Shown here: positions 2,439-12,906 of the stretch, in pieces
Position numbering within the stretch: the first letter of the stretch is position 1
Layout: every line of letters begins with the position of its first letter
The notes under the pieces: model-generated
What the model was told of the DNA's origin: nothing
The model's input: the letters and a program-made list of their open reading frames with translations, nothing else
The model's database searches: none
Translations under genes and position numbers: made by a program
Source of the DNA: a virus
UHGV virus genome: UHGV-0870948
DNA length: 43,859 bases
Reading direction: 5' to 3' (one strand)

Positions 2439-3634
2439 GACTCCACCGTTATAACGATATTTTCCGGGGTACAGGACGCAGATTCGTTGTATCTGATATC
2501 AATGTTTGATGACGACAAAGCCCCCGGGGATTTCCCAATCGTCAGTTCCTGAATATCGTAATAGCGTGCATTCCCGCCACTCACCACGCCAAGATTCGCC
2601 GGTGAGTAAATGCGACTTAAAAGGACCGAATCACCAATCGTCAAACTATTGATATAGTCGGAAATAGCCTGCTGGATCTGCTGCCCTATCTGTGAGGTAT
2701 AACCCGTAAAAACTTTTAATTTAATCCGGGCATAAACAGGCACATCACTGGAACGCGAGAATTTGATTACATGGGGATTGCCGTATTTATCCGGAACCGT
2801 AACGGATGTTGTACCGTGAGTGGCTGTCCCCTGGCCTTTATTCCCTCTGATAGCCTGAGCAATATCCGTCACATCACCGCCATCCACAATTACAGCAACA
2901 GAGTGTGGCGGTAACCCGTTACCGTCCTCCGAACCAGTATCGTTTTCATAGAGTTTGTGGCGGGTTACACCGGTAACATTAGAAACAGCACCATCCAGTG
3001 CTTCAAATGGGGTTATTGATGGCAACGCAACACTTTGCGACTGACGGATACGTAACTCAGCATCAGTTTCTGCCGGAGAACCAACAGTAGCCGCAGCAGG
3101 ATTAGTTACCGAAACCCAGCCACGGGTTGGCGTATTAATTTCAGTGATAGTTCCAGCCAGCGCCGCCACTGCACCACTGACGGAACATGTTGCGGTCGCC
3201 ATCACTGTACCATCCACGCCGACCACCACTGAAGCAGGCAAACGCCATATCACATTATTACTGTCTTTCACGCTGCCATTAATGATGGTTGTTCCGGCAG
3301 TTCCTGTAAGAAGCAAATCAACCGTAGAGTTCGTCGCGCCTTTACGTGAAATACCATTTATTTTCACGTTACTGGTCAGTGCAGCCCCATAGCCGGTTGC
3401 CGGTGAAAAACAGTTGTAGACAGTTATCGCCATATTATTGGCATCATGAATCGCCAGCGCCATCAGAGCCACCATCTGGCCGTCTTTGCTGTCCGGTTCG
3501 AGGTAGGCATCACTGCCATAAATCTGCTGAAAATAGCTAATCAGGGTGCTGAGTATCGTCTGATAATCAGGCGCACTGATCCCCTCCGCGGTTACCTTTG
3601 CAGATAAACCGAGAGAATCAAGGTTCAGAGCCAT
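2435..3634 (-). CDS. Baseplate J-like protein
   Basis: 399-aa ORF in the conserved position after the small baseplate protein; family assignment from memory. Confidence 0.65.
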   Translation of the reverse strand: MALNLDSLGLSAKVTAEGISAPDYQTILSTLISYFQQIYGSDAYLEPDSKDGQMVALMALAIHDANNMAITVYNCFSPATGYGAALTSNVKINGISRKGATNSTVDLLLTGTAGTTIINGSVKDSNNVIWRLPASVVVGVDGTVMATATCSVSGAVAALAGTITEINTPTRGWVSVTNPAAATVGSPAETDAELRIRQSQSVALPSITPFEALDGAVSNVTGVTRHKLYENDTGSEDGNGLPPHSVAVIVDGGDVTDIAQAIRGNKGQGTATHGTTSVTVPDKYGNPHVIKFSRSSDVPVYARIKLKVFTGYTSQIGQQIQQAISDYINSLTIGDSVLLSRIYSPANLGVVSGGNARYYDIQELTIGKSPGALSSSNIDIRYNESASCTPENIVITVES

Positions 3635-3987
3635 TACGCCTCCGATGTAACAGTCGTTATTCCATAGAGAGTGTCGATTTCAGCGGAAAACATGACACGT
3701 CGGGTCGTGGTATCCACCGTCGTATTGAAAGAGAGGATTGATTTAACGCCCTGCGTTTCGAGGATGCGCTTACGGATCGCCAGGTTGTAAGTTTCTGGTT
3801 TTTGCCTGCCCAGCACGGACTGGATCCACGGTGTTCCCTCTGTGGTATCAAGAAACCATTGCCCATACCACAATTCGAATCGCGTTTTCACAGCCTGCGC
3901 TACGGCCTCAGGCGAGTTAATCAGCCAGGTGTCATCACCGCTGCCAAAGGTGTAATCGCCATCGGCGTCTTCACGTCTGTATCGCAT
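3634..3987 (-). CDS. Small baseplate-associated protein (gp46/W-like)
   Basis: 117-aa ORF coupled between the spike and J-like genes. Confidence 0.45.
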   Translation of the reverse strand: MRYRREDADGDYTFGSGDDTWLINSPEAVAQAVKTRFELWYGQWFLDTTEGTPWIQSVLGRQKPETYNLAIRKRILETQGVKSILSFNTTVDTTTRRVMFSAEIDTLYGITTVTSEA

Positions 3988-4596
3988 CAGTTTACCCCGT
4001 CGGTACTGCTTCCACCACGCTGAACACCACCATGAGTGTGTGTATCATCGATTGGCTTGCCATTAGCCTTCACGCTCCCCAAAAACTCAACAGCACCAGT
4101 GATTTTTGAAGCCACACCAGAAACCACAGACCCCACCATGCCCCCCATCCAGGTTAACAGGCCATGAATGGTTACTTTCTCAGAAAAATCAGCCAGAGGG
4201 GCAACCACATCAAGACCACCTGGAGCGACAATTTTAATTTTCCTGGTATCAGGATTAAGCTCAAAATAGGTGCTGCCGTCATCACTACGCAACTGTGTGG
4301 CACTGGTATTAATACCGCTAATCTTCCTTGCCTGCGACTGGGGACCGACAATACAAAACGCATCCGATAAATCATGCATTCTGTCATCGACCGACTCCTG
4401 TATCCCGCCACTCTGCCACCAGAAATCAATACAACGATCGGCAAAAATCACCAAACATTCATCACCGGCTTTAACTGGGAACGTTAGCGTACATCCTCCG
4501 CCGCGCGGGAATACCACTGGCACATCCACCAGCAATGGGTAATTTTTGGTAATGCGGTTGCCGTCATTATCCTTTTCAACCGAACGGATAGCAGGC
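3987..4596 (-). pseudogene. Baseplate spike protein (gpV / Mu gp45-like), 3' portion separated from its 5' end by the IS66-family insertion
   Basis: Frame continues ...PAIRSVEKDNDGNRITKNYPLLVDVPVVF...; the PA codons lie in the left TSD copy and rejoin in frame with the fragment at 7138-7288. Confidence 0.7.
4589..4596. repeat. Target-site duplication, left copy (TAGCAGGC)
   Basis: Identical 8-mer abuts both ends of the IS66-family element. Confidence 0.8.
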
Positions 4597-4626
4597 GTAA
4601 GCGTCAACGGAGCACCGTATTGACGC

Positions 4627-6240
4627 TTATTTATTAGTGAGTACTACGTTCCATGGCAGGAGTTCGTCAACTCGGTTGGAAGGCCATTCCGGCAGTACGC
4701 TCAGGATATGGCGCAGATACGCTTCCGGATCGATACCATTCAACCGGCAGGTGCCGATCAGCCCGTACAACAGTGCACCACGCTCGCCTCCGTGATCGCT
4801 ACCGAAGAACACGTAATTTTTCTTTCCGAGACAGACTGCACGAAGCGCTCTTTCCGCTGTGTTATTGTCCGCCTCCGCCAGACCGTCATCACAGAAGTTG
4901 CACAACGCAACCCAGTGCTTCCTGATATACCGGAACGCATCTCTCAGACGGCATTTTTTCGATAACGTGTGTTCTTTCTCCTGCATCAGCTTATACAGGG
5001 AAGTCAGTAGCGGTTTACTCTGCATTTGCCTGACCGCCAGGCGTTCAGACACCGGCAACCCGCGTATTTCGTGCTCAATGGCGTACAGTTCGCCGATTAG
5101 TTTCAGTGCTTCTTCCGCCGTCGCGCTTTTGGTACTGATATATACATCGTGGATTTTGCGCCGTGCATGAGCCCAGCATCCTGCTTCCGTCAACGCGCCG
5201 CCTTCACGTTCGGCACTGAACAGCCGATCGTAACCTGCGAACGCATCTGCCTGCAGGATACCCCGGAAGGGACGAAGGTGTTGCTCCGGATGTTTACCCT
5301 GATGGTCCGGTGAGTAGGCGAACCAGACCGCCGGAGGTTCTGGCGAACCGGCATTTCGGTCATCCCGGACATACGTCCAGATATATCCTGTTTTCGCCTT
5401 CTTCCTGCCCGGTGCCAGTACTTTTACTGGTGTGTCATCAGTGTGAACCTTGCGGGTGTTCATCACATAACTGTACAGGGCATCATTCAGCGGAGTCATT
5501 AACTGGCAGCACGCATCAACCCAGTTGGAGAGTAAGGCACGGCTCAGTTCGACACCCTGGCGGGCAAAGATTTCACTCTGACGATACAGTGGCAGGTGTT
5601 CGCAGTATTTTCCCGTTAACACGCGGGCAAGTAACCCCGGGCCCGCGATACCACGCTCTATCGGACGGGATGGTGCCGGTGCTTCAACGATGCAGTCACA
5701 TTTTGTACAGGCTTTTTTTACCCGTTCTGTGCGGATCACTTTCAGGGCGCTGCTCACCAGTTCCAGTTGTTCTGCGCTGACTTCCCCCAGATAATCCAGC
5801 TCACCGCCACACTCCGGGCAACAGCTTTCTTCAGGCTCCAGGCGGTATATTTCACGGGGGAGATGTGCCGGTAACGGACGACGATGGCGCGACTGTCGCA
5901 ACTGGCGGGGAACCAGCGGGTCATCCTCACGCCCACTGTAACGATCGCTTTCCTGCTCGCGTTGTTTCAGCAGGGCTTCAGCCTGTTCAACCTCACGACG
6001 CAGTTTTTCAGAACGGGTTCCGAACAGCATCCGGCGCAGTTTTTCTATCTGAGCCCGCAGATGCTCTATTTCCCGTTCATCTTCTTCGATCTTTTCTTCG
6101 GCACGTGCCAGTGCAGAGCGCAGGAAGGCCTCCGTCTCTTCAACCAGACTCAGTTGCTGGTCTTTCTGACGGAGGGCTTCAGCCTGCTCAGAGAGCAGCC
6201 TTTCCAGCTCAGCGATGCGAATGAGGTATTTCTGACTCAT
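4627..6240 (-). CDS. tnpC: IS66-family transposase TnpC
   Basis: 537-aa ORF with N-terminal coiled-coil, CxxC...CxxC zinc motif and conserved IS66 transposase core. Confidence 0.85.
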   Translation of the reverse strand: MSQKYLIRIAELERLLSEQAEALRQKDQQLSLVEETEAFLRSALARAEEKIEEDEREIEHLRAQIEKLRRMLFGTRSEKLRREVEQAEALLKQREQESDRYSGREDDPLVPRQLRQSRHRRPLPAHLPREIYRLEPEESCCPECGGELDYLGEVSAEQLELVSSALKVIRTERVKKACTKCDCIVEAPAPSRPIERGIAGPGLLARVLTGKYCEHLPLYRQSEIFARQGVELSRALLSNWVDACCQLMTPLNDALYSYVMNTRKVHTDDTPVKVLAPGRKKAKTGYIWTYVRDDRNAGSPEPPAVWFAYSPDHQGKHPEQHLRPFRGILQADAFAGYDRLFSAEREGGALTEAGCWAHARRKIHDVYISTKSATAEEALKLIGELYAIEHEIRGLPVSERLAVRQMQSKPLLTSLYKLMQEKEHTLSKKCRLRDAFRYIRKHWVALCNFCDDGLAEADNNTAERALRAVCLGKKNYVFFGSDHGGERGALLYGLIGTCRLNGIDPEAYLRHILSVLPEWPSNRVDELLPWNVVLTNK

Positions 6241-6270
6241 GGCCGTTTTTATAATGCGGTCAGGAGTTTT

Positions 6271-6621
6271 TTACAACATTGTCAGTGCGTTAAGGCGGGA
6301 TGTTTTTGGCTGACGCCAGTCCAGCTTATCGAGGAGCATTGCCAGTTGCGAGCGGGTAATGGATATCTTACCGTCACGCACCGCAGGCCAGATAAACTGA
6401 CCTTCCTCAAGGCGTTTGGTGAACAGGCACAGACCATCAGCATCAGCCCACAGGATTTTAATCGTGTCTCCCCGTCGGCCACGGAAGATAAACAGGTGAC
6501 CGGAGAAGGGGTTATCATCCAGCACATGCTGTATTTGCTCCCCCAGACCGTTGAAGGATTTACGCATATCAGTAACGCCGGCAACGAGCCAGATACGGGT
6601 ACCTGATGGGAGTGAAATCAT
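6271..6621 (-). CDS. tnpB: IS66-family accessory protein TnpB (Orf2)
   Basis: 116-aa ORF MISLPSGTRIWLVAGVTDMRKSFNGL... typical of IS66 Orf2; overlaps tnpA. Confidence 0.8.
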   Translation of the reverse strand: MISLPSGTRIWLVAGVTDMRKSFNGLGEQIQHVLDDNPFSGHLFIFRGRRGDTIKILWADADGLCLFTKRLEEGQFIWPAVRDGKISITRSQLAMLLDKLDWRQPKTSRLNALTML

Positions 6622-7055
6622 CGTCCCCTCCCGGTCAGCTCACGGATCAACACCGTGAGCAGCTCTGGTGAAGGATTTTCCAGCATCATTTTACCGTAAT
6701 GGAATTCCACATGGCAGGAAGCTGCACAAGCAACTGATAATGCCTCCGGAGCAGGAGCATCTGTAGCACAGCGCGTGGTGTCGATAAGTTCCACTGGAAC
6801 CAGAGTCGGAGAGGCCGGAAAAGATTGTGATACTGTAGGGCCTACAATAGTTGGAGGCATTCTGCGAGAAATACGTCCTTCTCTTTGCCAGAGGCGTAGC
6901 CATTTAAAAATCAGGTTGTTATCAACGCCATGTTCCCGGGCCAGTTGTGCAACATTGGCATTTGGTTTCGAAGCCAGTTCAACCATATGAAGTTTAAATT
7001 CATTAGAAAATATCCGGCGGGTTCCGGAGCGCCAGTCTGTAGGTTTATCCATCAA
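6618..7055 (-). CDS. tnpA: IS66-family accessory protein TnpA (Orf1)
   Basis: 145-aa ORF with HTH-like segment (FSNEFKLHMVELASKPNANVAQLAREHGV), first gene of the IS66 operon. Confidence 0.75.
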   Translation of the reverse strand: MMDKPTDWRSGTRRIFSNEFKLHMVELASKPNANVAQLAREHGVDNNLIFKWLRLWQREGRISRRMPPTIVGPTVSQSFPASPTLVPVELIDTTRCATDAPAPEALSVACAASCHVEFHYGKMMLENPSPELLTVLIRELTGRGR

Positions 7056-7137
7056 TAGAACTCCGTCTAATTTAGAAGGAGCTCTAATTTAGTCTGCAAG
7101 GAGCAGGTGTTACAGACGGCATTGGCTTTACGCTTAC

Positions 7138-7145
7138 TAGCAGGC
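7138..7145. repeat. Target-site duplication, right copy (TAGCAGGC)
   Basis: Identical to 4589-4596. Confidence 0.8.
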
Positions 7146-7288
7146 TGCACAACTGCCGTCACCGCATCAGGATCGAATGACTGAATAATGCCAGGCAAGG
7201 CGACACGGATCTGGTTCTTTGTTGTTTCCCGTTCAGATTTGAATGTTTCGGCAAGGTCGCCGCTGCGGGTCTGGTCAGATACTGCCAT
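7138..7288 (-). pseudogene. Baseplate spike protein, 5' portion (first 50 codons) truncated by the IS insertion
   Basis: MAVSDQTRSGDLAETFKSERETTKNQIRVALPGIIQSFDPDAVTAVVQPA, then reads into IS sequence; rejoins in frame with 3987-4596 when the IS and one TSD copy are removed. Confidence 0.7.
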
Positions 7289-7307
7289 TTAGTAGGCTCC
7301 AGAAAGC

Positions 7308-7330
7308 AAAAAACCCGCCGAAGCGGGTTT
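7308..7330. terminator. Rho-independent (bidirectional) terminator downstream of the HEPN-like gene
   Basis: AAAAAA-CCCGC-CGAA-GCGGG-TTT: GC stem flanked by an A-run on one side and a T-run on the other. Confidence 0.65.
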
Positions 7331-7347
7331 GATAACGTTAATTTTAT

Positions 7348-7743
7348 TCATGAAACTCTAGCAGACTTTAGCTGTTCCCAGCGCTCAAAATAGAGTTCAG
7401 CAGCCTCGATTGCATCCTGTCCCATCTCTTTCGAAACAGTCACATTCGTCAGATCATAGTCAGCTTCATTTCTAGCATCCCGCCACTGGCGAAGTACGAA
7501 AGCTAGGGATTTCAGTGTATTTGTCGGGTATGGCTCTGATTTGCACTCTGAGGGCGTTGACATATAACCCACAGTATTTTTGTGATGCTCATGGGTAAAA
7601 TGCGGTATGGCAGTAAGTGAGCTAATAGACTCATGTAACATACTGTAATACGCCCTTGAGATAGCGCTTCGAAATCCACTCTCAATATTTTCAGACAGAC
7701 ATAATCGAGCGGTATCGAGAATCTGATTGCTAGTTACCGACAT
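7348..7743 (-). CDS. HEPN-like small helical protein (candidate toxin/RNase component)
   Basis: 131 aa; AISRAYYSMLHE (R-x6-H, resembles the conserved HEPN helix) and LRQWRDARNEADY; overlaps the upstream gene by 14 nt; region visibly AT-richer than flanks. Confidence 0.5.
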   Translation of the reverse strand: MSVTSNQILDTARLCLSENIESGFRSAISRAYYSMLHESISSLTAIPHFTHEHHKNTVGYMSTPSECKSEPYPTNTLKSLAFVLRQWRDARNEADYDLTNVTVSKEMGQDAIEAAELYFERWEQLKSARVS

Positions 7744-8503
7744 GGTAGCTCACCCCCGTATGCAACTGACGCGGAGAGGTAAATCTAGCTAACAGGGAAC
7801 AATCATCCAGTTTAGATTCAGCGCAGACTCTATCAGCCAAGTCGAAGTTCATTTTGGCAATAGTTTTAGGCTCAAGATTTTTAATATCAACAACATAGCA
7901 ACCGCTTCCACTAAGCTGAACGAAACCTGTCGTAGCCTTGTATTCACTTAGCAAGCCCCAGATTATGGATGCTAAGGTCTGGAACTGTTCCTTCGAGCAC
8001 TGTGTGGCGCTATAGAAATTATCCATTTCTGCAAGGAGTTCTTCTTTGTGCTTCATAGCATTACTCCTGCCTTCTGATTCAGAAAGAAGCTTAATGTGCT
8101 CTTCCATATAAAATTTTAACTGTTCACGCTCGCCGCAACGGTACGCCCAACTGTATGCGTTGTGACTAAAGAGTTTTGTCCGATACTTCTTTGCCAGCGG
8201 GACATAGACATCCTTGAGTTCATTATAGCTAAATGTATTAATTAAAATGTGATGATAGTGCATTGCCAACGTTACATCGTTTACTTCTAGGCTTATCCTG
8301 AGATAACGTAACGCGCTTTCAATCTTTCCGGTTATTGCATCCAGATAAGATAGTGCAATGTTGGTAGCAGGCGTTGGAGAGACAGAAAGTTCCTCTCGAA
8401 TTTTCTTTTCAGTGAAGGGATCTAAACTTTCCCTATCCAATAGAAGCGCATTGAATTGTTCAATATATTTTTGCGCTTTTTCTAATGGGATGCCTGCCGC
8501 CAT
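7730..8503 (-). CDS. Hypothetical protein, partner of the HEPN-like protein
   Basis: 257 aa, predicted mainly helical, no motif recognised; translationally coupled to the HEPN-like ORF. Confidence 0.55.
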   Translation of the reverse strand: MAAGIPLEKAQKYIEQFNALLLDRESLDPFTEKKIREELSVSPTPATNIALSYLDAITGKIESALRYLRISLEVNDVTLAMHYHHILINTFSYNELKDVYVPLAKKYRTKLFSHNAYSWAYRCGEREQLKFYMEEHIKLLSESEGRSNAMKHKEELLAEMDNFYSATQCSKEQFQTLASIIWGLLSEYKATTGFVQLSGSGCYVVDIKNLEPKTIAKMNFDLADRVCAESKLDDCSLLARFTSPRQLHTGVSYHVGN

Positions 8504-8598
8504 GGATTATTTCTCTTACTAAAGGGATTGTGATTGTGAACTTTGAACAATATCTCGTCAACCTTAAAGCGCTCATCTCGGAAGATTGACATCAAACT

Positions 8599-8940
8599 TT
8601 AGCGTAACGCCTTTTTACAAGGGAATGATCCGATGATTTTAGGCGCATCCATGCTGTTCTGCAGAAGCTGGACGTTCAGGAAACGCGTTTCGGTGCCAGG
8701 GCGACGAATGTATTCAAAGCCGTAGTTGTTACCGTCTTTGGCAGGCATAAGCCCCATGTCTACTTTCAAACCATTGGTACCCAGTTCGGTGATTTTTTGA
8801 GAGGTAACTCTTTCACCGTTAATTGTCGATAACTCGCCCTGGTTTGCAACCATAGTGTAGCCACCGCATTTAACCGTGAAGCCATCCGCCCACACGCTGC
8901 ACGCAGAAAAGACAGCTAACAGAAAAATGATACCCCTCAT
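8599..8940 (-). CDS. Secreted (periplasmic) protein with N-terminal signal peptide
   Basis: MRGIIFLLAVFSACSVWA-DG...: hydrophobic signal peptide with A-x-A-type cleavage site; two Cys in the mature part; starts 4 nt after the hub-like gene stop. Confidence 0.55.
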   Translation of the reverse strand: MRGIIFLLAVFSACSVWADGFTVKCGGYTMVANQGELSTINGERVTSQKITELGTNGLKVDMGLMPAKDGNNYGFEYIRRPGTETRFLNVQLLQNSMDAPKIIGSFPCKKALR

Positions 8941-8943
8941 TGC

Positions 8944-10005
8944 TCATCCCCTTTGCAAAGCCGATTGCGTATACAGATCCGCCGCGCCACGCGCTTCGCA
9001 CATCATATCCATGTACCACGCCTGGCCCCTTGTATCGCCAGTGTACATAATCCCGCGCACAATATAAACGCCATCCGTTGCGATGCTGGCAGGTTGTGCT
9101 GTGGTGCCGCTGAGCGTGATATTTCCGTCTGTGTTCTGGTCGGTGATCTGCCCACCAGCCATCGCGATATCATTGTTCGACAGCGCGGTGCGGTACACGG
9201 AAGCCTGATCCAGCTGAATAAGCCCGTTAACCCGGATGTTCGGATTAATAAGAGCGCGGACGTTTACGCCGTTACCGATAGTCTGCTGCGGCATGCCGAT
9301 AAGCCCGGTGGCGCTGTTGAGCACAATCGCGTCGTGAACATACTCGTTATTCGCCACCATCTGGCGCTGACCGTCCACAAATTGCCATGTTGCGCCACAT
9401 TGTCCGGCCACGTTATCCATAAGATGCCGTGTCATGCCGAACAGCACCCGCCCTCGAGGGTATACGGTAGCAGGCATTTCAGGCGTCAGTCCTTCGGTCG
9501 CGCCTTTGGCCTCAAAGTCTTTCATCAGCGCACGGTTCACATCTGCGACTGTGTAACCGGCAGCCAGCGTCTGTGAGGTTATACTGGTGGCAAATGCCAG
9601 ATCAGTATCTGCTGCCTGAATCAGGACGTAGGTATCAACCGGACTGTCTTTTCCTGTGACCGAGTAGCGAATTTCTCCGCTGAAAATCAGCCCGTAGTTG
9701 CGGCCATCACTCTGGCCCACGTCCGCCGCGTCAACTTCCCGCACAGTCCCGACGTCGCTTGCCGCCACCTCCGGCGCGATACCGTCGTAACCGGCAATCA
9801 GCCGCACTTTCGAAAACTCCTGCCCGGTAATTCGGTTCACAGTATCTGCCGAAAGGTTATAAATTTTGATAGTCCCTACCCGGGACGCGCTGCTGATGTT
9901 GAACCAGTCGATCGTAAAGGTGACTTTGAAATCACTTAGCTCAATTCCCTTACCGTTCCCGTCCACAAGCTGCAGCTCGAAATGTCTCATCCAGTTCTGT
10001 GACAT
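8944..10005 (-). CDS. Baseplate hub-like / tail protein
   Basis: 353-aa ORF in the tail operon shortly after the tape measure gene; functional call is positional. Confidence 0.45.
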   Translation of the reverse strand: MSQNWMRHFELQLVDGNGKGIELSDFKVTFTIDWFNISSASRVGTIKIYNLSADTVNRITGQEFSKVRLIAGYDGIAPEVAASDVGTVREVDAADVGQSDGRNYGLIFSGEIRYSVTGKDSPVDTYVLIQAADTDLAFATSITSQTLAAGYTVADVNRALMKDFEAKGATEGLTPEMPATVYPRGRVLFGMTRHLMDNVAGQCGATWQFVDGQRQMVANNEYVHDAIVLNSATGLIGMPQQTIGNGVNVRALINPNIRVNGLIQLDQASVYRTALSNNDIAMAGGQITDQNTDGNITLSGTTAQPASIATDGVYIVRGIMYTGDTRGQAWYMDMMCEARGAADLYTQSALQRG

Positions 10006-10007
10006 GC

Positions 10008-10310
10008 TTACTCCGTTGATACCAGCAAATGACTGCGCCCGCCCAGGTCAGTTTTCGTGGGATAATCCTGTGTGTTGTCATCGCAGACCACCAACAGCTT
10101 AAAACCAAGTCCCATACAGGCGTACTGCGCCAGCAGATCAGCGCCAGTGACGAGAGGAATACCGGAGATTACCGGCTCTCCTCTGTCGTTCTGCAGGTCC
10201 ATAATCCAGTAAGGATCGCGCCATATGATGCTAATCCGCCAGGTGACACCACCCAGGACGATGCTGAACTGCTGGTTGTCCGCTGTCAGCGGAATTTCCT
10301 GAATTGTCAT
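10008..10310 (-). CDS. Phage tail protein (hypothetical)
   Basis: 100-aa ORF coupled in the tail operon. Confidence 0.4.
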   Translation of the reverse strand: MTIQEIPLTADNQQFSIVLGGVTWRISIIWRDPYWIMDLQNDRGEPVISGIPLVTGADLLAQYACMGLGFKLLVVCDDNTQDYPTKTDLGGRSHLLVSTE

Positions 10311-10897
10311 TAGCCGCCTCCCAGTAATGACGCCACGTTACCCGTGATGCTTTTCAGCAGTGAAGTATCTGGAGGCTTTGTGGTTTTGTTACCGCTATTC
10401 TGTACCGCCGACGTGCTGGCCCCTTCCTTCATGTTGGTTTTATCCGCGACGGTAATCTGCTGTGTCCGGGAGATAATGACCTCCCTCAGGGTGAGGACGG
10501 CGGACAGGACGTTTTCGGTTGTCTTGTCCGTCGTCACTTCCAGCGCCCGGATCAACATGTTGCTGTACAGCCGTTTACCGGTTACCACATCGAAGGGGAT
10601 ACGGCTTTCCTGCAGATCCAGTAGCTCCTGATACGTCTGCTGAGGACTCAGGCCGAGCAGGCTGGTAGCTGTCAGATTACTGGCAAAATCCAGCAATGCG
10701 CCGCCACCGGCGAAACCAACCTCCATCACCACTTCTGACGGTTTTTTATAGGCATGATCAGCGACAGCGGCCCCGACCTCTACCGGATGCTCTGTTATTT
10801 CAAGCATATCTGTATGCTTCTCTGAAATAACAACACTGGGAACAATCATTCCTATTTTTCTGCTCTGCTGATGAAAAAGTGTAGAGAGAATATCCAC
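10310..10897 (-). CDS. Phage tail protein (hypothetical)
   Basis: 195-aa ORF immediately after the tape measure gene (stop/start overlap). Confidence 0.4.
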   Translation of the reverse strand: MDILSTLFHQQSRKIGMIVPSVVISEKHTDMLEITEHPVEVGAAVADHAYKKPSEVVMEVGFAGGGALLDFASNLTATSLLGLSPQQTYQELLDLQESRIPFDVVTGKRLYSNMLIRALEVTTDKTTENVLSAVLTLREVIISRTQQITVADKTNMKEGASTSAVQNSGNKTTKPPDTSLLKSITGNVASLLGGG

Positions 10898-12906
10898 TAA
10901 CCCACCCTCACCTGATTACTTCGCATGACCTGAGCATTTGCAGACTGTTGCCGACGTGCAACCTCATTACCGACAGCGTGCGGATCTCCGCCACCGTAAA
11001 TGTGGTAAGTATTTTGCTGGTTAACCTCTGTCATTTTGCCACTAATTCCCGCCACGGCAGCCTTATTAATCAGCTCTCGAGAATAGATATTTCTTCCATT
11101 TTCATGCTGGATAATGCTGCTCATCAATGCTGACATGGTTTGCGGATCGCTCATATTCAGGGCAGCCCGGGGATCCACTCCCAGTCGTTGCGATACAGCC
11201 CTGATATACGCAGTTGTGTTGTTATTATCAGACGCAGGTGCCCAGGTAGAGATAATTTTCTCCACACTGTTTATTCCCCGTCCGGCGTACAGCATTAACT
11301 GACGAGCAAGAGCCCGTAATCCATCAAAAGCAGTTTCAAATCTGGCAAATCGCCCGCCCGGGCGTTCAAGAGAAGCCCCTGCCTGACCAGCAAAATTAAG
11401 GTTTCCCGGATTGTTATTCCGTTCTCCTCGTTTCGTAGCCTGTGCATATTGTTCCGGCTCATCATCACCAAACCAGCCGCGTACCGTCCGGCCCACACTG
11501 CGGGGATCGAATCCCCAGTGCTCTTTAATCCAGTCGGCAGTACTGTTAGCGCTGTCTGTAACCATCGGCATCGCTGACGGATTTTCGCTGCCCTGATTAA
11601 GTATCTGTTTGCCGATGATGACGGCATCAGCCCAGCGGCCATCTTTGATAGCGTTGAGCAGGTCGGCGATCATGTTCAGCATTTTGCTGAATTCGCCCAT
11701 CTGGTCGATGAAGTTGCTGAAATCCCACTTCAGGGACCATGATTTGGGGTCAATATTGAGCAGTTTCGCCAGCGCTTTCGCCAGTTCATTAACAGACCCT
11801 TTCAGGTCACGAACCATCTTCAGCGCGGCATCGACCTCCGGCTTCCACTTGCCCCAGTCAATCAGGCTGTCGCCGCCTTCCTTCCAGGTCTGATAGTCCT
11901 CCCACAGAAGGGCAATCCCCGCCGCCAGCGCGGTAATGAGGCCAATCGGCGACATCCAGAACGTACTGTTCAGAATGCGCAGCGCAATCGTCAGCGCGCC
12001 AAACAGCGAGATGAGCTCCCGCGTTTGCTTATCCAGCGATTGCCACCAGGTGATAAGGCTGGATGTTCCCTCAATTAGCCTGAAGAACAGCCGCCCGATG
12101 ATGTCTCCGATCGCCAGAATGCCTTTTATGGCTTTCGTCAGGGTCTGCTCGATGCGCGGGAAGTTATCGAGGATGTGGCGGCGCAGTGTGTCCAGCGAAC
12201 CCGCCAGACCACCAGCAAGATTAGAGCCGATTTTGTCACGGGCCATGCCTGCCATCGCGCCGAACTCGCGCAGGGAGGTCATGAATTTGTTGGAGCTTCT
12301 GGCCGCCTCGTCAGCATTGAAGCCGATAGCTTTCGCCATTGCGCTGTACTGCCCGGAGAAATCACCCACACCCCGGCGCATCGCCATAAGGGTATTTTCG
12401 TCAATGCCTAGCATCTGCGCATACTGGTTAGCCCGGTAATACGGCATGCCGCTGAGCTTCTGGCCTACACCTGTAAAAATAGCGGCCATGTCACGCATGT
12501 TACCGCTGGCATCCCGTGTCTGTACCCCCAGGCGATTCAGGAATCCTTCCGCGCCGGGATTGTTACGAACAAACCGGGAGAGGCTTTCCAGAGAGGTTCG
12601 CGCCGCGTCCACGCTGCCGCCAACCTGCGAAACCGCATAGCCAATAGACTGAATTCCCTGGACTGTCGCGCCGGTGCGCTGTGACGCCCGGTAAAGATTA
12701 TCCAGGCCGGAGGCGATCTTAGCCGTGAAGGCCACCACGGACAGCGCAGCTCCTTCAACGGCCAGTCCCATTTTGATAGCATTTGCAGTTGTACCGGCGA
12801 GGACAGAACCGAACTTTTTCGCTCCTGCATCATCCACACTGAAGCCAAGCGAGACGAGGAAATCTTTAATAGTTTCAGCGTTCATTATCCTCTCTCCATT
12901 TCTCAA
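10897..12906 (-). CDS. Tail tape measure protein
   Basis: Largest ORF of the tail module (669 aa), Ala/Gly-rich helical, follows the chaperone gene. Confidence 0.6.
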   Translation of the reverse strand: MRNGERIMNAETIKDFLVSLGFSVDDAGAKKFGSVLAGTTANAIKMGLAVEGAALSVVAFTAKIASGLDNLYRASQRTGATVQGIQSIGYAVSQVGGSVDAARTSLESLSRFVRNNPGAEGFLNRLGVQTRDASGNMRDMAAIFTGVGQKLSGMPYYRANQYAQMLGIDENTLMAMRRGVGDFSGQYSAMAKAIGFNADEAARSSNKFMTSLREFGAMAGMARDKIGSNLAGGLAGSLDTLRRHILDNFPRIEQTLTKAIKGILAIGDIIGRLFFRLIEGTSSLITWWQSLDKQTRELISLFGALTIALRILNSTFWMSPIGLITALAAGIALLWEDYQTWKEGGDSLIDWGKWKPEVDAALKMVRDLKGSVNELAKALAKLLNIDPKSWSLKWDFSNFIDQMGEFSKMLNMIADLLNAIKDGRWADAVIIGKQILNQGSENPSAMPMVTDSANSTADWIKEHWGFDPRSVGRTVRGWFGDDEPEQYAQATKRGERNNNPGNLNFAGQAGASLERPGGRFARFETAFDGLRALARQLMLYAGRGINSVEKIISTWAPASDNNNTTAYIRAVSQRLGVDPRAALNMSDPQTMSALMSSIIQHENGRNIYSRELINKAAVAGISGKMTEVNQQNTYHIYGGGDPHAVGNEVARRQQSANAQVMRSNQVRVG

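What the first reader, a model, noticed from the sequence alone, without database searches (positions are those of the whole stretch)
7348..8503. Overlapping two-gene cassette (257-aa unknown + 131-aa HEPN-like) inserted in the baseplate operon: candidate toxin/defence module
Seen in sequence: two ORFs overlapping by 14 nt lie between the baseplate hub-like gene and the spike gene, where related tail operons have only structural genes. The segment is visibly AT-richer than its flanks and ends in a strong terminator (7308-7330). The 131-aa protein carries AISRAYYSMLHE (an R-x6-H arrangement on a helix resembling the conserved HEPN helix) and a second RDARNEADY segment. The 257-aa partner has no motif I recognise and is not a minimal nucleotidyltransferase. 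Inference: a prophage-borne toxin-antitoxin-like or abortive-infection pair with a HEPN-type effector and an uncharacterised partner.
Basis: partly seen in the sequence, partly recalled or inferred. Interest (0 to 1): 0.8.

Follow-up and report, generated by a model that had tools for sequence, protein, structure and literature searches.

The report
Mobile two-gene HEPN cassette in prophage
A self-contained two-gene unit, a repeat-protein partner plus a small HEPN protein of the kind that usually cuts RNA, sits in a swap-prone slot of a prophage tail operon and recurs in unrelated phages, so it is probably an untested toxin-antitoxin-like phage-defence module.

Summary
The two ORFs exist as described: 257 aa at 7730-8503 and 131 aa at 7348-7743, minus strand, overlapping by 14 nt. 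The segment has 42% GC against 54% in the flanks and ends at a hairpin terminator. The 131-aa protein is a real HEPN domain of the PF05168/UPF0332 "AF0298-like" type. The canonical site is R91-NEADY-D97, where D replaces the His that sister subfamilies keep. The 257-aa partner is a TPR array followed by a C-terminal alpha/beta domain with no known match. It is not a nucleotidyltransferase. The two genes were adjacent in 82 of 83 loci, down to about 20-30% identity, and they diverge together (r = 0.97). A promoter-like element travels with them. The pair occurs in at least six phage contexts. In 78 near-identical tail modules this slot holds at least eight alternative cargoes, and TPR-HEPN pairs fill 35 of them. 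One alternative cargo includes a YafO toxin. The pair matches no known defence model. The best reading is a prophage moron encoding a HEPN effector controlled by a TPR sensor or antitoxin. Toxicity, RNase activity and defence have not been tested.

The parts
8533..8561 (-). Promoter-like element of the cassette (TTGACG, 17 nt, CACAAT), about 30-60 nt upstream of the 257-aa start codon
   Evidence: Found by the consensus scan. That scan alone is not above the shuffle expectation. However, a TTGAC[G/T]-17/18-[T/C]A[G/C]AAT element lies at the same distance upstream of the pair in diverged cassettes and in other genomic contexts (L014, L019, L022, L024, L027, L028, L034, L004, L032). Transcription was not tested.
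7730..8503 (-). Gene for the 257-aa partner. It has an N-terminal TPR-like array (about residues 7-139), two long helices (146-187) and a small beta-beta-alpha-beta domain (192-242), with conserved flexible N- and C-terminal tails.
7348..7743 (-). Gene for the 131-aa HEPN protein of the PF05168/UPF0332, AF0298-like type. Invariant residues are E21, R25, R30, Y32, Y33, H37, H54, Y60, R91, D95 and Y96. The motif position reads R91-NEADY-D97.
   Evidence: ORF. phrog_5176 at 9e-40. Model with pLDDT 91.1, a four-helix bundle with an insert. Top Foldseek match is 2hsb/AF0298 HEPN (prob 1.0, TM 0.68/0.71), followed by sacsin HEPN. The family profile matches 9xbd 'HEPN domain-containing protein' at 3e-6 and 2hsb at 2e-3. 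Relatives carry precomputed PF05168.
7301..7330 (-). Intrinsic terminator (AAACCCGC-TTCG-GCGGGTTT followed by TTTGCTTTCT) closing the cargo slot just upstream of the spike start codon
   Evidence: The same hairpin is conserved upstream of the spike gene with different cargoes, so it belongs to the slot rather than to this cassette.
7321..8611 (-). Extent of the exchangeable segment (cargo slot). Homology with phages carrying other cargo stops at about 8612 on the hub side and resumes at about 7320-7329 on the spike side.
   Evidence: blastn breakpoints against L001, L002, L003 and L042. GC is 0.421 here against 0.540 in the flank.
8599..8940 (-). Context: 113-aa signal-peptide (lipoprotein-like) gene between the hub gene and the cassette. 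It is not part of the pair.
   Evidence: phrog_3443 at 1e-46. Named 'STY1065/STY2022 family phage-derived protein' in RefSeq. Present in 69 of 78 related slots.
8944..10005 (-). Context: baseplate hub gene (353 aa), the upstream anchor of the slot
   Evidence: Pfam E217_GP41 baseplate hub at 1.8e-5 and NCBIfam orf58_phage_fam at 1e-48. Annotated as baseplate hub in SEN34 and YP3.
7138..7288 (-). Context: N-terminal fragment of the membrane-puncturing spike gene, the downstream anchor of the slot. It is truncated by an insertion sequence. The ORF runs on into the IS, to 7067.
   Evidence: Homology to intact 250-aa spike genes ends at 7138. Intact spike genes are annotated in E. coli F11 and P4.
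4597..7137 (-). Context: IS66-family insertion sequence (tnpA 6618-7055, tnpB 6271-6621, tnpC 4627-6240) that interrupts the spike gene
   Evidence: ORFs. Terminal inverted repeats GTAAGCGTCAA / TTTACGCTTAC at 4597-4607 and 7127-7137. The family assignment from the three-ORF layout rests on my own knowledge.

Best explanation
The cassette is a prophage 'moron', an autonomous accessory unit with its own promoter-like element, two translationally coupled genes and a terminator, placed in an exchangeable cargo slot of the tail operon.

It encodes a two-component conflict module. The 131-aa protein is an AF0298-like HEPN domain and is the likely effector, probably a dimeric RNase. The 257-aa protein sits in the upstream position that MNT antitoxins occupy in HEPN/MNT modules. 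It probably binds the HEPN protein through its conserved C-terminal half and tails. Its more variable N-terminal TPR surface would be used to recognise a signal from an infecting phage.

In a lysogen the complex would be inert. Binding of a trigger, or loss of the partner, would free or activate the HEPN protein. That would stop translation and abort the infection.

Shown: the fold and family of both proteins, strict pairing, co-divergence, mobility between phage types, and the hotspot location. Inferred: expression in lysogens, physical complex, RNase activity, toxicity, the trigger, and the defence phenotype.
For: 1. HEPN identity. The model has pLDDT 91. The best structural match is AF0298/2hsb (prob 1.0, TM about 0.7). 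The family profile matches 9xbd at 3e-6 and AF0298 at 2e-3. Relatives carry PF05168.

2. Active-site pattern. It fits the AF0298/AbiV-type variant described by Anantharaman et al. 2013 (PMC3710099). In that variant the R is retained at the end of helix 3, D replaces H, and an alternative conserved His comes from the insert between helices 2 and 3. Here these are R91, D97 and invariant H54. Sister subfamilies keep R91-x5-H97. AbiV shares this fold neighbourhood and is a proven Abi RNase (bioRxiv 10.1101/2024.05.05.592566).

3. Obligate pairing. In 82 of 83 loci with a partner homologue, the HEPN gene directly follows or overlaps it. No HEPN homologue in these loci lacked the partner. Identities of the two proteins to the window pair correlate (Pearson 0.97, n = 46), and the partner diverges faster.

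4. Orphan partner. The single orphan is the partner, not the HEPN protein (Yersinia phage YP3). That is the pattern expected of an antitoxin and a toxin.

5. Mobility.
   - SEN34-like myovirus tail slot
   - Klebsiella siphophage, upstream of the tape-measure gene
   - lambda-like phages, between the genes I read as gpM and gpL; in L046 it lies next to a pair I read as HicAB-like from sequence
   - Vibrio P2-like phage, in the region I equate with the old/tin hotspot
   - lambdoid nin region
   - Mu-like prophage, between mor and gemA

6. Hotspot. Among 78 tail modules with a hub at least 96% identical, the slot holds at least 8 cargo types. TPR-HEPN pairs fill 35, in three types that are under 35% identical to each other. 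Another cargo pairs a 192-aa protein with a YafO toxin (PF13957, 4e-17).

7. Moron anatomy. A conserved promoter-like element travels with the pair. There is a terminator and GC is 12 points below the flanks.

8. Partner features. The TPR helices 1-6 are the most variable part of the partner (0.43-0.46 per-column identity, against 0.60-0.66 for the rest). No catalytic-looking residues are conserved across distant members.

9. Precedents. HepS and Tha are prophage HEPN Abi proteins triggered by tail proteins (PMC13043305, PMC11087260).
Against: - There is no experimental datum of any kind for this family.
- No defence model matches either protein (PADLOC). The papers searched do not mention it.
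- The window's HEPN protein lacks the canonical His (R91-x5-D97). Position 97 varies across the family (D/E/H/R/K), so RNase activity is uncertain.
- The protein is acidic (pI 5.7), which is unusual for an RNA-binding toxin.
- Class II PF05168 HEPN proteins are not described as biochemically characterised in the papers read here.
- In two related contigs the partner gene is frameshifted near codon 40 while the HEPN gene is intact. This argues that the HEPN protein is not lethally toxic without a full-length partner, although an internal start leaves most of the protein.
- The promoter-like site is a weak consensus match (9 of 12), and the scan found no more sites than shuffles give.
- No prediction of the complex could be run.
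Confidence: 0.55

Rival explanations
1. The pair is a plain addiction (toxin-antitoxin) module. It stabilises the prophage or simply spreads selfishly, and it has no role in excluding other phages.
For: The architecture is TA-like: a putative neutraliser upstream, a 14-nt overlap, strict pairing and a single orphan partner. The same slot can hold a YafO-toxin module. TA-like pairs sit beside the cassette in L046.
Against: The partner has no DNA-binding domain for autoregulation and is twice the size of the putative toxin. It carries a variable TPR surface typical of sensors. Very diverged alleles are exchanged at one slot between near-identical phages, which resembles arms-race turnover more than simple addiction. 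Many TA modules in prophages also act as defence, so the two readings overlap.
Confidence: 0.15
2. The HEPN protein is non-catalytic. The pair would then be a binding or regulatory complex, for example one that sequesters RNA or a nucleotide or controls lysogeny. The HEPN protein would act as an adaptor, and the module would have no toxic effector.
For: The canonical His is absent in the window protein, and position 97 is unconstrained in the family. The protein is acidic. Anantharaman et al. note that HEPN domains lacking the motif can be RNA- or ligand-binding. The partner gene can be frameshifted while the HEPN gene stays intact.
Against: A set of polar residues is invariant down to 26% identity (R25, R30, H37, H54, R91, D95, Y96). 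These occupy helix 2, the insert and the end of helix 3, the positions described for the alternative active site of AF0298/AbiV-type HEPN domains. One E. coli genome has IS2 inserted exactly after R91-N92-E93 with the partner intact. That fits selection against an active effector, but it is a single case.
Confidence: 0.15
3. The pair is a phage counter-defence or host-takeover module used during lytic growth, for example to degrade host or competitor RNAs or to neutralise a host HEPN-type system.
For: It lies inside a late (tail) operon and could be read through from the late promoter. Phage YP3 carries an orphan partner with no HEPN gene, which could be an antitoxin-mimic anti-defence gene.
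Against: The cassette brings its own promoter-like element and is closed by a terminator. It is also found in early or accessory regions: nin, mor-gemA and the P2 region I equate with old/tin. All contexts found are temperate phages or prophages.
Confidence: 0.1
4. The two proteins are tail-assembly or virion accessory proteins specific to this tail type.
For: Only the position between the baseplate hub and spike genes.
Against: Neither protein matches a virion family. Near-identical tail modules lack the pair or carry unrelated cargo. The pair occurs next to non-tail genes in P2-like, lambdoid and Mu-like phages. HEPN and TPR are not structural folds in the baseplate proteins of this operon.
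Confidence: 0.03

Closest known systems
Class II HEPN/MNT modules (PF05168 HEPN + PF01909 MNT; Yao et al. 2020, PMC7641770; 'HEPN-T' of Anantharaman et al. 2013, PMC3710099)
   Same: The small standalone HEPN protein belongs to the same sequence and fold family (UPF0332/AF0298-like). It lacks the RX4HXY motif of class I. It is encoded second in a tightly coupled two-gene operon.
   Different: The upstream partner is not an MNT. It has no GSX10DXD motif (0 of 34 close relatives) and no NTP_transf_2 hit. It is a 257-aa TPR array plus a novel alpha/beta domain, so neutralisation by AMPylation is excluded. The context here is temperate phages of Enterobacterales and Vibrionaceae, not archaeal or thermophile chromosomes.
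AbiV (Lactococcus abortive-infection HEPN RNase with RNA antitoxin; bioRxiv 10.1101/2024.05.05.592566)
   Different: No sequence-level match to the AbiV models in PADLOC. AbiV is 201 aa and is inhibited by an RNA (type III TA). Here the partner is a protein, and the His at position 97 is replaced.
HepS (Gifsy-1 prophage solo HEPN; PMC13043305) and Tha (S. aureus prophage HEPN; PMC11087260)
   Same: Both are prophage-encoded HEPN effectors held inactive until phage structural (tail) proteins appear, and both work by abortive infection. They show how a prophage HEPN module can work and why self-targeting must be avoided.
   Different: They are single-protein systems with canonical Rx4-6H motifs in which sensing is built into the HEPN protein. 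Here a separate TPR protein would do the sensing or inhibition. No homology was detected.
HEPN families associated with TPR/Sel1 proteins (LA2681: fused to or in operon with TPR; AbiU2: operon with Sel1 repeats; Table 1 of PMC3710099) and the single-gene 'HEPN-TPR' from the P4 hotspot tested by Rousset et al. 2022 (PMC9122126, Table S2B)
   Same: They repeat the pairing of a HEPN domain with a helical-repeat protein in defence or hotspot contexts.
   Different: Those HEPN domains belong to other families with canonical Rx4-6H motifs. The Rousset protein reads ...RSSFVHE... and is one large fusion. Here an AF0298-type HEPN domain is paired with a compact 257-aa TPR-plus-C-terminal-domain protein. 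I found no description of that combination.
DefensePredictor DS-28 (HEPN family nuclease 163 aa + 252-aa hypothetical; PMC13092281)
   Same: A validated two-gene E. coli defence system of similar sizes with a small HEPN protein.
   Different: The gene order is reversed and the HEPN protein has a canonical motif (MRNSVAH). The partner sequence is unrelated and does not look TPR-like by eye. The window proteins' accessions are absent from that paper's tables.

Membership tests
HEPN superfamily | Four-helix up-down bundle with an insert between helices 2 and 3 | tested here: met
   The AlphaFold model has pLDDT 91.1, with helices 5-17, 21-42, an insert at 53-67, 74-95 and 105-130. The top Foldseek matches are HEPN structures 2hsb (prob 1.0, TM 0.68/0.71), 3o10, 1wol and 8xeh_B.
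HEPN superfamily | Rx4-6H motif at the end of helix 3 | tested here: not met
   The window protein reads R91-N-E-A-D-Y-D97, with no His at positions +4 to +6. Sister subfamilies at about 50% identity read R91-NEADY-H97, that is Rx5H. The literal R30-x6-H37 match is in helix 2, and H37 is Tyr in the nearest solved relative, 9xbd.
HEPN-T / PF05168 / UPF0332 (AF0298-like subtype) | Sequence or profile match to PF05168 or to AF0298 | tested here: inconclusive
   The window protein alone has no Pfam hit at E<=1, and phmmer against 9xbd gives 2e-3. The family profile matches 9xbd at 3e-6 and AF0298 at 2e-3. Distant members score 18.8-19.6 bits against PF05168, whose cut-off is 22. Several relatives carry precomputed PF05168 and are named UPF0332 by their sources.
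HEPN-T / PF05168 / UPF0332 (AF0298-like subtype) | R of the motif retained, H replaced (often by D), and an alternative conserved His from the insert between helices 2 and 3 (PMC3710099) | tested here: met
   R91 is invariant, position 97 is D, and H54 is invariant within the insert at 43-73. Spatial proximity of H54 and R91 was not measured.
HEPN ribonuclease (function) | Metal-independent RNA cleavage by a dimer | not testable with these tools
HEPN/MNT type VII toxin-antitoxin system | Adjacent minimal nucleotidyltransferase with a GSX10DXD motif | tested here: not met
   The partner has no NTP_transf_2 hit. G[SG]x9-13Dx[DE] is absent in 34 of 34 close relatives, and there are only 4 chance matches among 62 distant ones. 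The fold is a TPR array plus a beta-beta-alpha-beta domain.
Tetratricopeptide-repeat proteins (for the 257-aa partner) | Stack of paired antiparallel helices that matches TPR structures and profiles | tested here: met
Type II toxin-antitoxin systems | Small antitoxin with a DNA-binding domain (HTH/RHH/AbrB) that neutralises the toxin by binding | tested here: not met
   No DNA-binding domain appears in the partner by Pfam, NCBIfam or fold. The partner is larger than the putative toxin. Neutralisation by binding cannot be tested here.
Known anti-phage defence systems (PADLOC-DB v2.0.0) | Match to any model of a described or candidate system | tested here: not met
   Neither window protein gives a hit at E<=1. 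A Chronis-like HEPN allele gives only a weak HEPN_IX hit at 1.6e-4, and its partner gives none.
Phage moron (autonomous accessory unit in a late operon) | Own promoter and terminator, deviant base composition, and presence or absence among otherwise near-identical phages | tested here: met
   The promoter-like element is conserved with the cassette. There is a terminator. GC is 0.42 against 0.54. The slot holds at least 8 cargo types among 78 tail modules with a hub at least 96% identical. Actual transcription was not tested.

The most novel reading that the evidence does not exclude
The TPR-plus-C-terminal-domain protein and the AF0298-type HEPN protein form a previously undescribed family of two-component anti-phage (abortive-infection) systems. 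In it a dedicated TPR protein replaces the MNT enzyme as the controller of a class II-type HEPN effector that uses a non-canonical active site.

The slot between the baseplate hub and spike genes of SEN34-like prophages would then be a previously unrecognised defence hotspot inside a tail operon. The orphan partner in phage YP3 would be an antitoxin-mimic counter-defence.
Probability: 0.4. Interest if true: 0.7.

Novelty: new variant of a known kind. Interest (0 to 1): 0.6.

Why it matters
- PF05168 (class II) HEPN proteins are abundant, yet none of the papers read here characterises one biochemically. This phage-borne version comes with a protein partner other than MNT, sits in E. coli prophages and is easy to clone. 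It would therefore give a tractable handle on whether, and how, His-less HEPN domains cleave RNA.
- It would add a new sensor-effector logic (a TPR protein gating a HEPN protein) to the catalogue of prophage defences. It would also point to a cargo slot inside a tail operon, which defence-island searches do not look at, as a reservoir of further systems. The same slot carries a YafO-toxin module and several membrane proteins.
- RefSeq annotation omits the HEPN gene in some genomes, so tools that work from annotated proteins would miss the pair there.

Tried and rejected
- **Library scans.** Pfam, NCBIfam and PADLOC scans of both window proteins gave nothing usable. PHROGs gave only 'unknown function' families.
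- **R30-x6-H37 as the HEPN motif.** I considered this and rejected it as the canonical site because it lies in helix 2 and is not conserved in 9xbd. The residues are invariant in the family, so they remain candidates for function.
- **Identity with published systems.** I checked DefensePredictor DS-28, the Rousset 'HEPN-TPR' protein, HEC-08 and HepS. All are different proteins.
- **Literature searches.** Searches for the accession WP_000718774, for PDB codes 9xbd and 9xbc, for HEPN with UPF0332, and for SEN34 hotspots found nothing relevant.
- **RNA families.** An Rfam scan of 7000-9000 found none.
Full report
**1. What is in the sequence**

On the minus strand the window carries a contractile-tail operon.
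- Tape measure: 10897-12906.
- Dit-like protein: 10310-10897.
- Pam3-gp18-like plug: 10008-10310.
- Baseplate hub: 8944-10005.
- A 113-aa signal-peptide protein: 8599-8940.
- The two ORFs of the finding: 257 aa at 7730-8503 and 131 aa at 7348-7743.
- A 73-aa N-terminal piece of the spike gene: 7067-7288.

The two ORFs overlap by 14 nt, and a Shine-Dalgarno-like GGGGGTGAG precedes the second start codon. GC falls to 0.39-0.45 across the cassette, against 0.52-0.57 in the hub and tape-measure genes. Over the exchangeable segment it is 0.421, against 0.540 in the flank. An 8-bp hairpin with a T-run lies at 7330-7301.

The spike gene is cut at 7137/7138 by an IS66-family element with terminal inverted repeats at 4597-4607 and 7127-7137. 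The rest of the spike gene is the ORF at 3987-4607. The tail module of this prophage copy is therefore probably defective, while the cassette is intact.

**2.

Evidence for the HEPN assignment:
- The window protein alone gives no Pfam, NCBIfam or PADLOC hit.
- It belongs to phrog_5176.
- phmmer finds the solved 'HEPN domain-containing protein' 9xbd at 2e-3.
- A profile of 23 relatives improves that to 3e-6 and also finds AF0298 (2hsb, 'UPF0332') at 2e-3.
- The AlphaFold model (pLDDT 91) is a four-helix bundle with an insert. Its best PDB match is 2hsb (prob 1.0, TM 0.68/0.71), followed by other HEPN structures.
- More distant relatives score just under the PF05168 cut-off or carry precomputed PF05168.

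Anantharaman et al. (PMC3710099) place the Rx4-6H motif at the end of helix 3. They describe an AF0298/AbiV-type variant in which the R is kept, the H is replaced (often by D), and an alternative conserved His comes from the insert between helices 2 and 3. The window protein shows this pattern. R91 is invariant at the end of helix 3 (residues 74-95). The motif reads R91-NEADY-D97. H54 is invariant in the insert.

Sister subfamilies at about 50% identity read RNEADYH, a canonical Rx5H. Position 97 varies across the family (D/E/H/R/K).

It is not the canonical motif. Helix-2 residues can border the HEPN active site, so these residues remain worth mutating.

**3. The 257-aa partner**

It gives a confident model (pLDDT 92). 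Eight TPR-like helices span residues 7-139, two long helices span 146-187, and a beta-beta-alpha-beta unit spans 192-242. The N-terminus (MAAGIPxEK) and the C-terminal tail (SPRQLHTGVSY) are flexible but conserved.
- TPR Pfam models match 12 of 62 diverse relatives and Chronis gp57.
- Nothing matches the C-terminal half.
- It is not an MNT. The GSX10DXD signature is absent, and the only invariant Asp is not part of a DxD/E.
- Across distant members no catalytic-looking residues are conserved, so it is probably a binding protein.
- The family is small and uniform: 120 representatives at 50% identity among 1.84 billion proteins, nearly all 245-270 aa, with no fusions to HEPN.

**4. The two genes form an obligate, co-evolving unit**

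Across all fetched loci, 82 of 83 partner genes are directly followed or overlapped by a HEPN gene. No HEPN gene of this family lacked the partner. This holds down to about 20% identity for the partner and 28% for the HEPN protein.

Identities of the two proteins to the window pair correlate (Pearson 0.97, 46 distinct pairs), and the partner diverges faster. Within the closer subfamily, TPR helices 1-6 are the most variable region.

The single exception is Yersinia phage YP3, which has an orphan 266-aa partner homologue in the same slot and no HEPN remnant.

Three anecdotes bear on toxicity:
- One E. coli contig has an IS2 end inserted right after R91-N92-E93 of the HEPN gene. I recognised the IS2 end from memory.
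- Two related contigs (their closest database match is a Yersinia enterocolitica protein) have the partner frameshifted near codon 40 with the HEPN gene intact.
- RefSeq omits the HEPN ORF in some genomes.

**5. It is a mobile moron in a cargo hotspot**

Homology with phages carrying other cargo stops at about 8612 and resumes at about 7320-7329. SEN34, vB_EcoM-689R2 and YP3 carry unrelated genes at this position.

I fetched 78 IMG/VR tail modules whose hub is at least 96% identical to the window's. Their slot contents were:

| Cargo | Loci |
|---|---|
| TPR-HEPN pair | 35 |
| 79-aa DUF4282 membrane protein | 14 |
| 192-aa protein + YafO toxin (PF13957, 4e-17) | 8 |
| 176-aa membrane protein, weak PycTM similarity | 4 |
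| DUF2335 protein and other rare cargoes | remainder |
| Nothing beyond the 113-aa gene | 4-5 |

The 35 pairs fall into three types that are mutually under 35% identical: the window type, the L042 type and a Chronis-like type. Some loci combine 97-100% identical tail genes with a pair only 32% identical to the window's, which indicates cassette replacement.

The terminator hairpin is shared by different cargoes, so it belongs to the slot. A TTGAC[G/T]-17/18-[T/C]A[G/C]AAT element at a fixed distance upstream of the partner gene travels with the pair into other genomic contexts.

The pair also occurs in these contexts:
- Klebsiella siphophages, upstream of the tape-measure gene.
- Lambda-like phages, between the genes I read as gpM and gpL; once it lies beside a pair I read as HicAB-like from sequence.
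- A Vibrio P2-like phage, between the portal/ogr genes and repA. I equate this region with P2's old/tin hotspot from my knowledge of the P2 map and Rousset et al.
- The nin region of Klebsiella phage Chronis.
- A Mu-like prophage, between mor and gemA.
- Next to a DUF3987 gene.

In E. coli this allele is in 27 of 5426 complete genomes, always chromosomal.

**6. Mechanism**

The data show an autonomous, exchangeable two-gene module whose conserved member is a HEPN domain with an AF0298/AbiV-type residue pattern. Its faster-evolving member is a non-enzymatic TPR protein in the upstream position that MNT antitoxins occupy.

My best inference, at confidence 0.55, is a toxin-antitoxin-like abortive-infection system. 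The partner would hold the HEPN effector inactive, through its conserved C-terminal half and perhaps its conserved tails. Its variable TPR face would sense an invading phage. Released or activated HEPN protein would then cleave RNA.

Precedents:
- HepS and Tha are prophage HEPN systems triggered by tail proteins.
- Other HEPN families associate repeatedly with TPR or Sel1 proteins.

Points against:
- No experiment exists for this family.
- The window protein has no canonical His.
- Its pI is acidic, 5.7.
- The promoter match is weak.
- One lineage tolerates a truncated partner.

Rival explanations are a pure addiction module, a non-catalytic regulatory pair, a counter-defence function and, very unlikely, a tail accessory role.

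**7. Comparison and novelty**

By sequence and fold the HEPN protein belongs with the class II (PF05168) HEPN proteins of HEPN/MNT modules (PMC7641770). The defining MNT partner was tested for and is absent, so the pair is not a HEPN/MNT system.

It matches no PADLOC model. It is not DefensePredictor DS-28, Rousset's HEPN-TPR, HEC-08 or HepS. I found no paper describing it.

I classify it as a new variant of a known kind: a HEPN-based two-gene conflict module with a new class of partner. A bonus observation is that the hub-spike junction of SEN34-like prophages is a multi-cargo hotspot.

Interest is moderate to high (0.6). The anatomy and distribution are clear and directly testable, but function is still inferred.

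Noticed in passing
window 4597-7137 (with 3987-4607 and 7138-7288): An IS66-family element (tnpA, tnpB, tnpC; terminal inverted repeats GTAAGCGTCAA) splits the membrane-puncturing spike gene into a 73-aa N-terminal ORF and a 206-aa C-terminal ORF. The tail module of this prophage copy is therefore probably non-functional, while the cassette is intact.
   Followed up: partly
window 8599-8940 (-): A 113-aa protein with a signal peptide and a possible lipobox (FSAC) sits between the hub gene and the cargo slot. It is phrog_3443, named 'STY1065/STY2022 family phage-derived protein' in RefSeq. It is present in 69 of 78 related slots but diverges from 99% down to about 27% identity. It may itself be a surface or exclusion factor.
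   Followed up: partly
L047 (E. coli F11) 4049-4444 and L048 (RIVM_C036204) 3049-3444: RefSeq/PGAP leaves the 131-aa HEPN ORF unannotated in these genomes, although the DNA is 99.9-100% identical to the window. It is annotated in strain P4 (WP_042108964.1). Surveys that start from annotated proteins would miss the pair there.
   Followed up: partly
L001 (Yersinia phage YP3, PV092592.1) 2775-3575 (-): An orphan 266-aa member of the TPR-partner family (hmmsearch 5e-13; 37% identical to a paired homologue in L113) occupies the same hub-spike slot. It has no HEPN gene and no HEPN remnant. It may be an antitoxin-like counter-defence gene or a decayed cassette.
   Followed up: partly
L082 588-1584 of the slot segment (also L084, L095 and 5 further loci); L085, L123, L117: Alternative cargoes occupy the same slot in near-identical tail modules. 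They include a 192-aa protein followed by a YafO-family toxin (PF13957, 4e-17), a 79-aa DUF4282 membrane protein, a 176-aa membrane protein with weak PycTM similarity, and a DUF2335 membrane protein. The slot looks like an unexplored hotspot for conflict genes.
   Followed up: partly
L010 7040-7151 (IMGVR_UViG_2585427779_000001): In one E. coli-derived contig the HEPN gene is interrupted right after codons R91-N92-E93 by what looks like an IS2 end (TAGACTGGCCCCCTGAATCTCCAGACAACC...), while the partner gene is intact. The IS2 identification is from memory.
   Followed up: no
L036 4369-5162 and L037 5897-6690: The partner gene carries a frameshift near codon 40, compared with the intact allele in L028, while the HEPN gene is intact. 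A 223-aa N-terminally shortened form (P0065) is annotated in Yersinia enterocolitica.
   Followed up: no
L046 6677-9215: In a lambda-like prophage the pair lies in a small island between the genes I read as gpM and gpL. The island also holds a pair I read as HicA/HicB-like from sequence and another small TA-like pair on the opposite strand.
   Followed up: no
alignment A2 vs PDB: The HEPN family profile also matches residues 568-615 of Legionella IcmE/DotG at E about 1.7e-5, over profile positions 63-111. This is unexplained. It is probably a repeat or compositional effect rather than homology.
   Followed up: no
(cluster look-up): The 257-aa and 131-aa proteins are reported as members of one and the same 90%-identity cluster of 136 sequences. 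That cannot reflect sequence similarity and looks like a database artefact of the overlapping genes.
   Followed up: no
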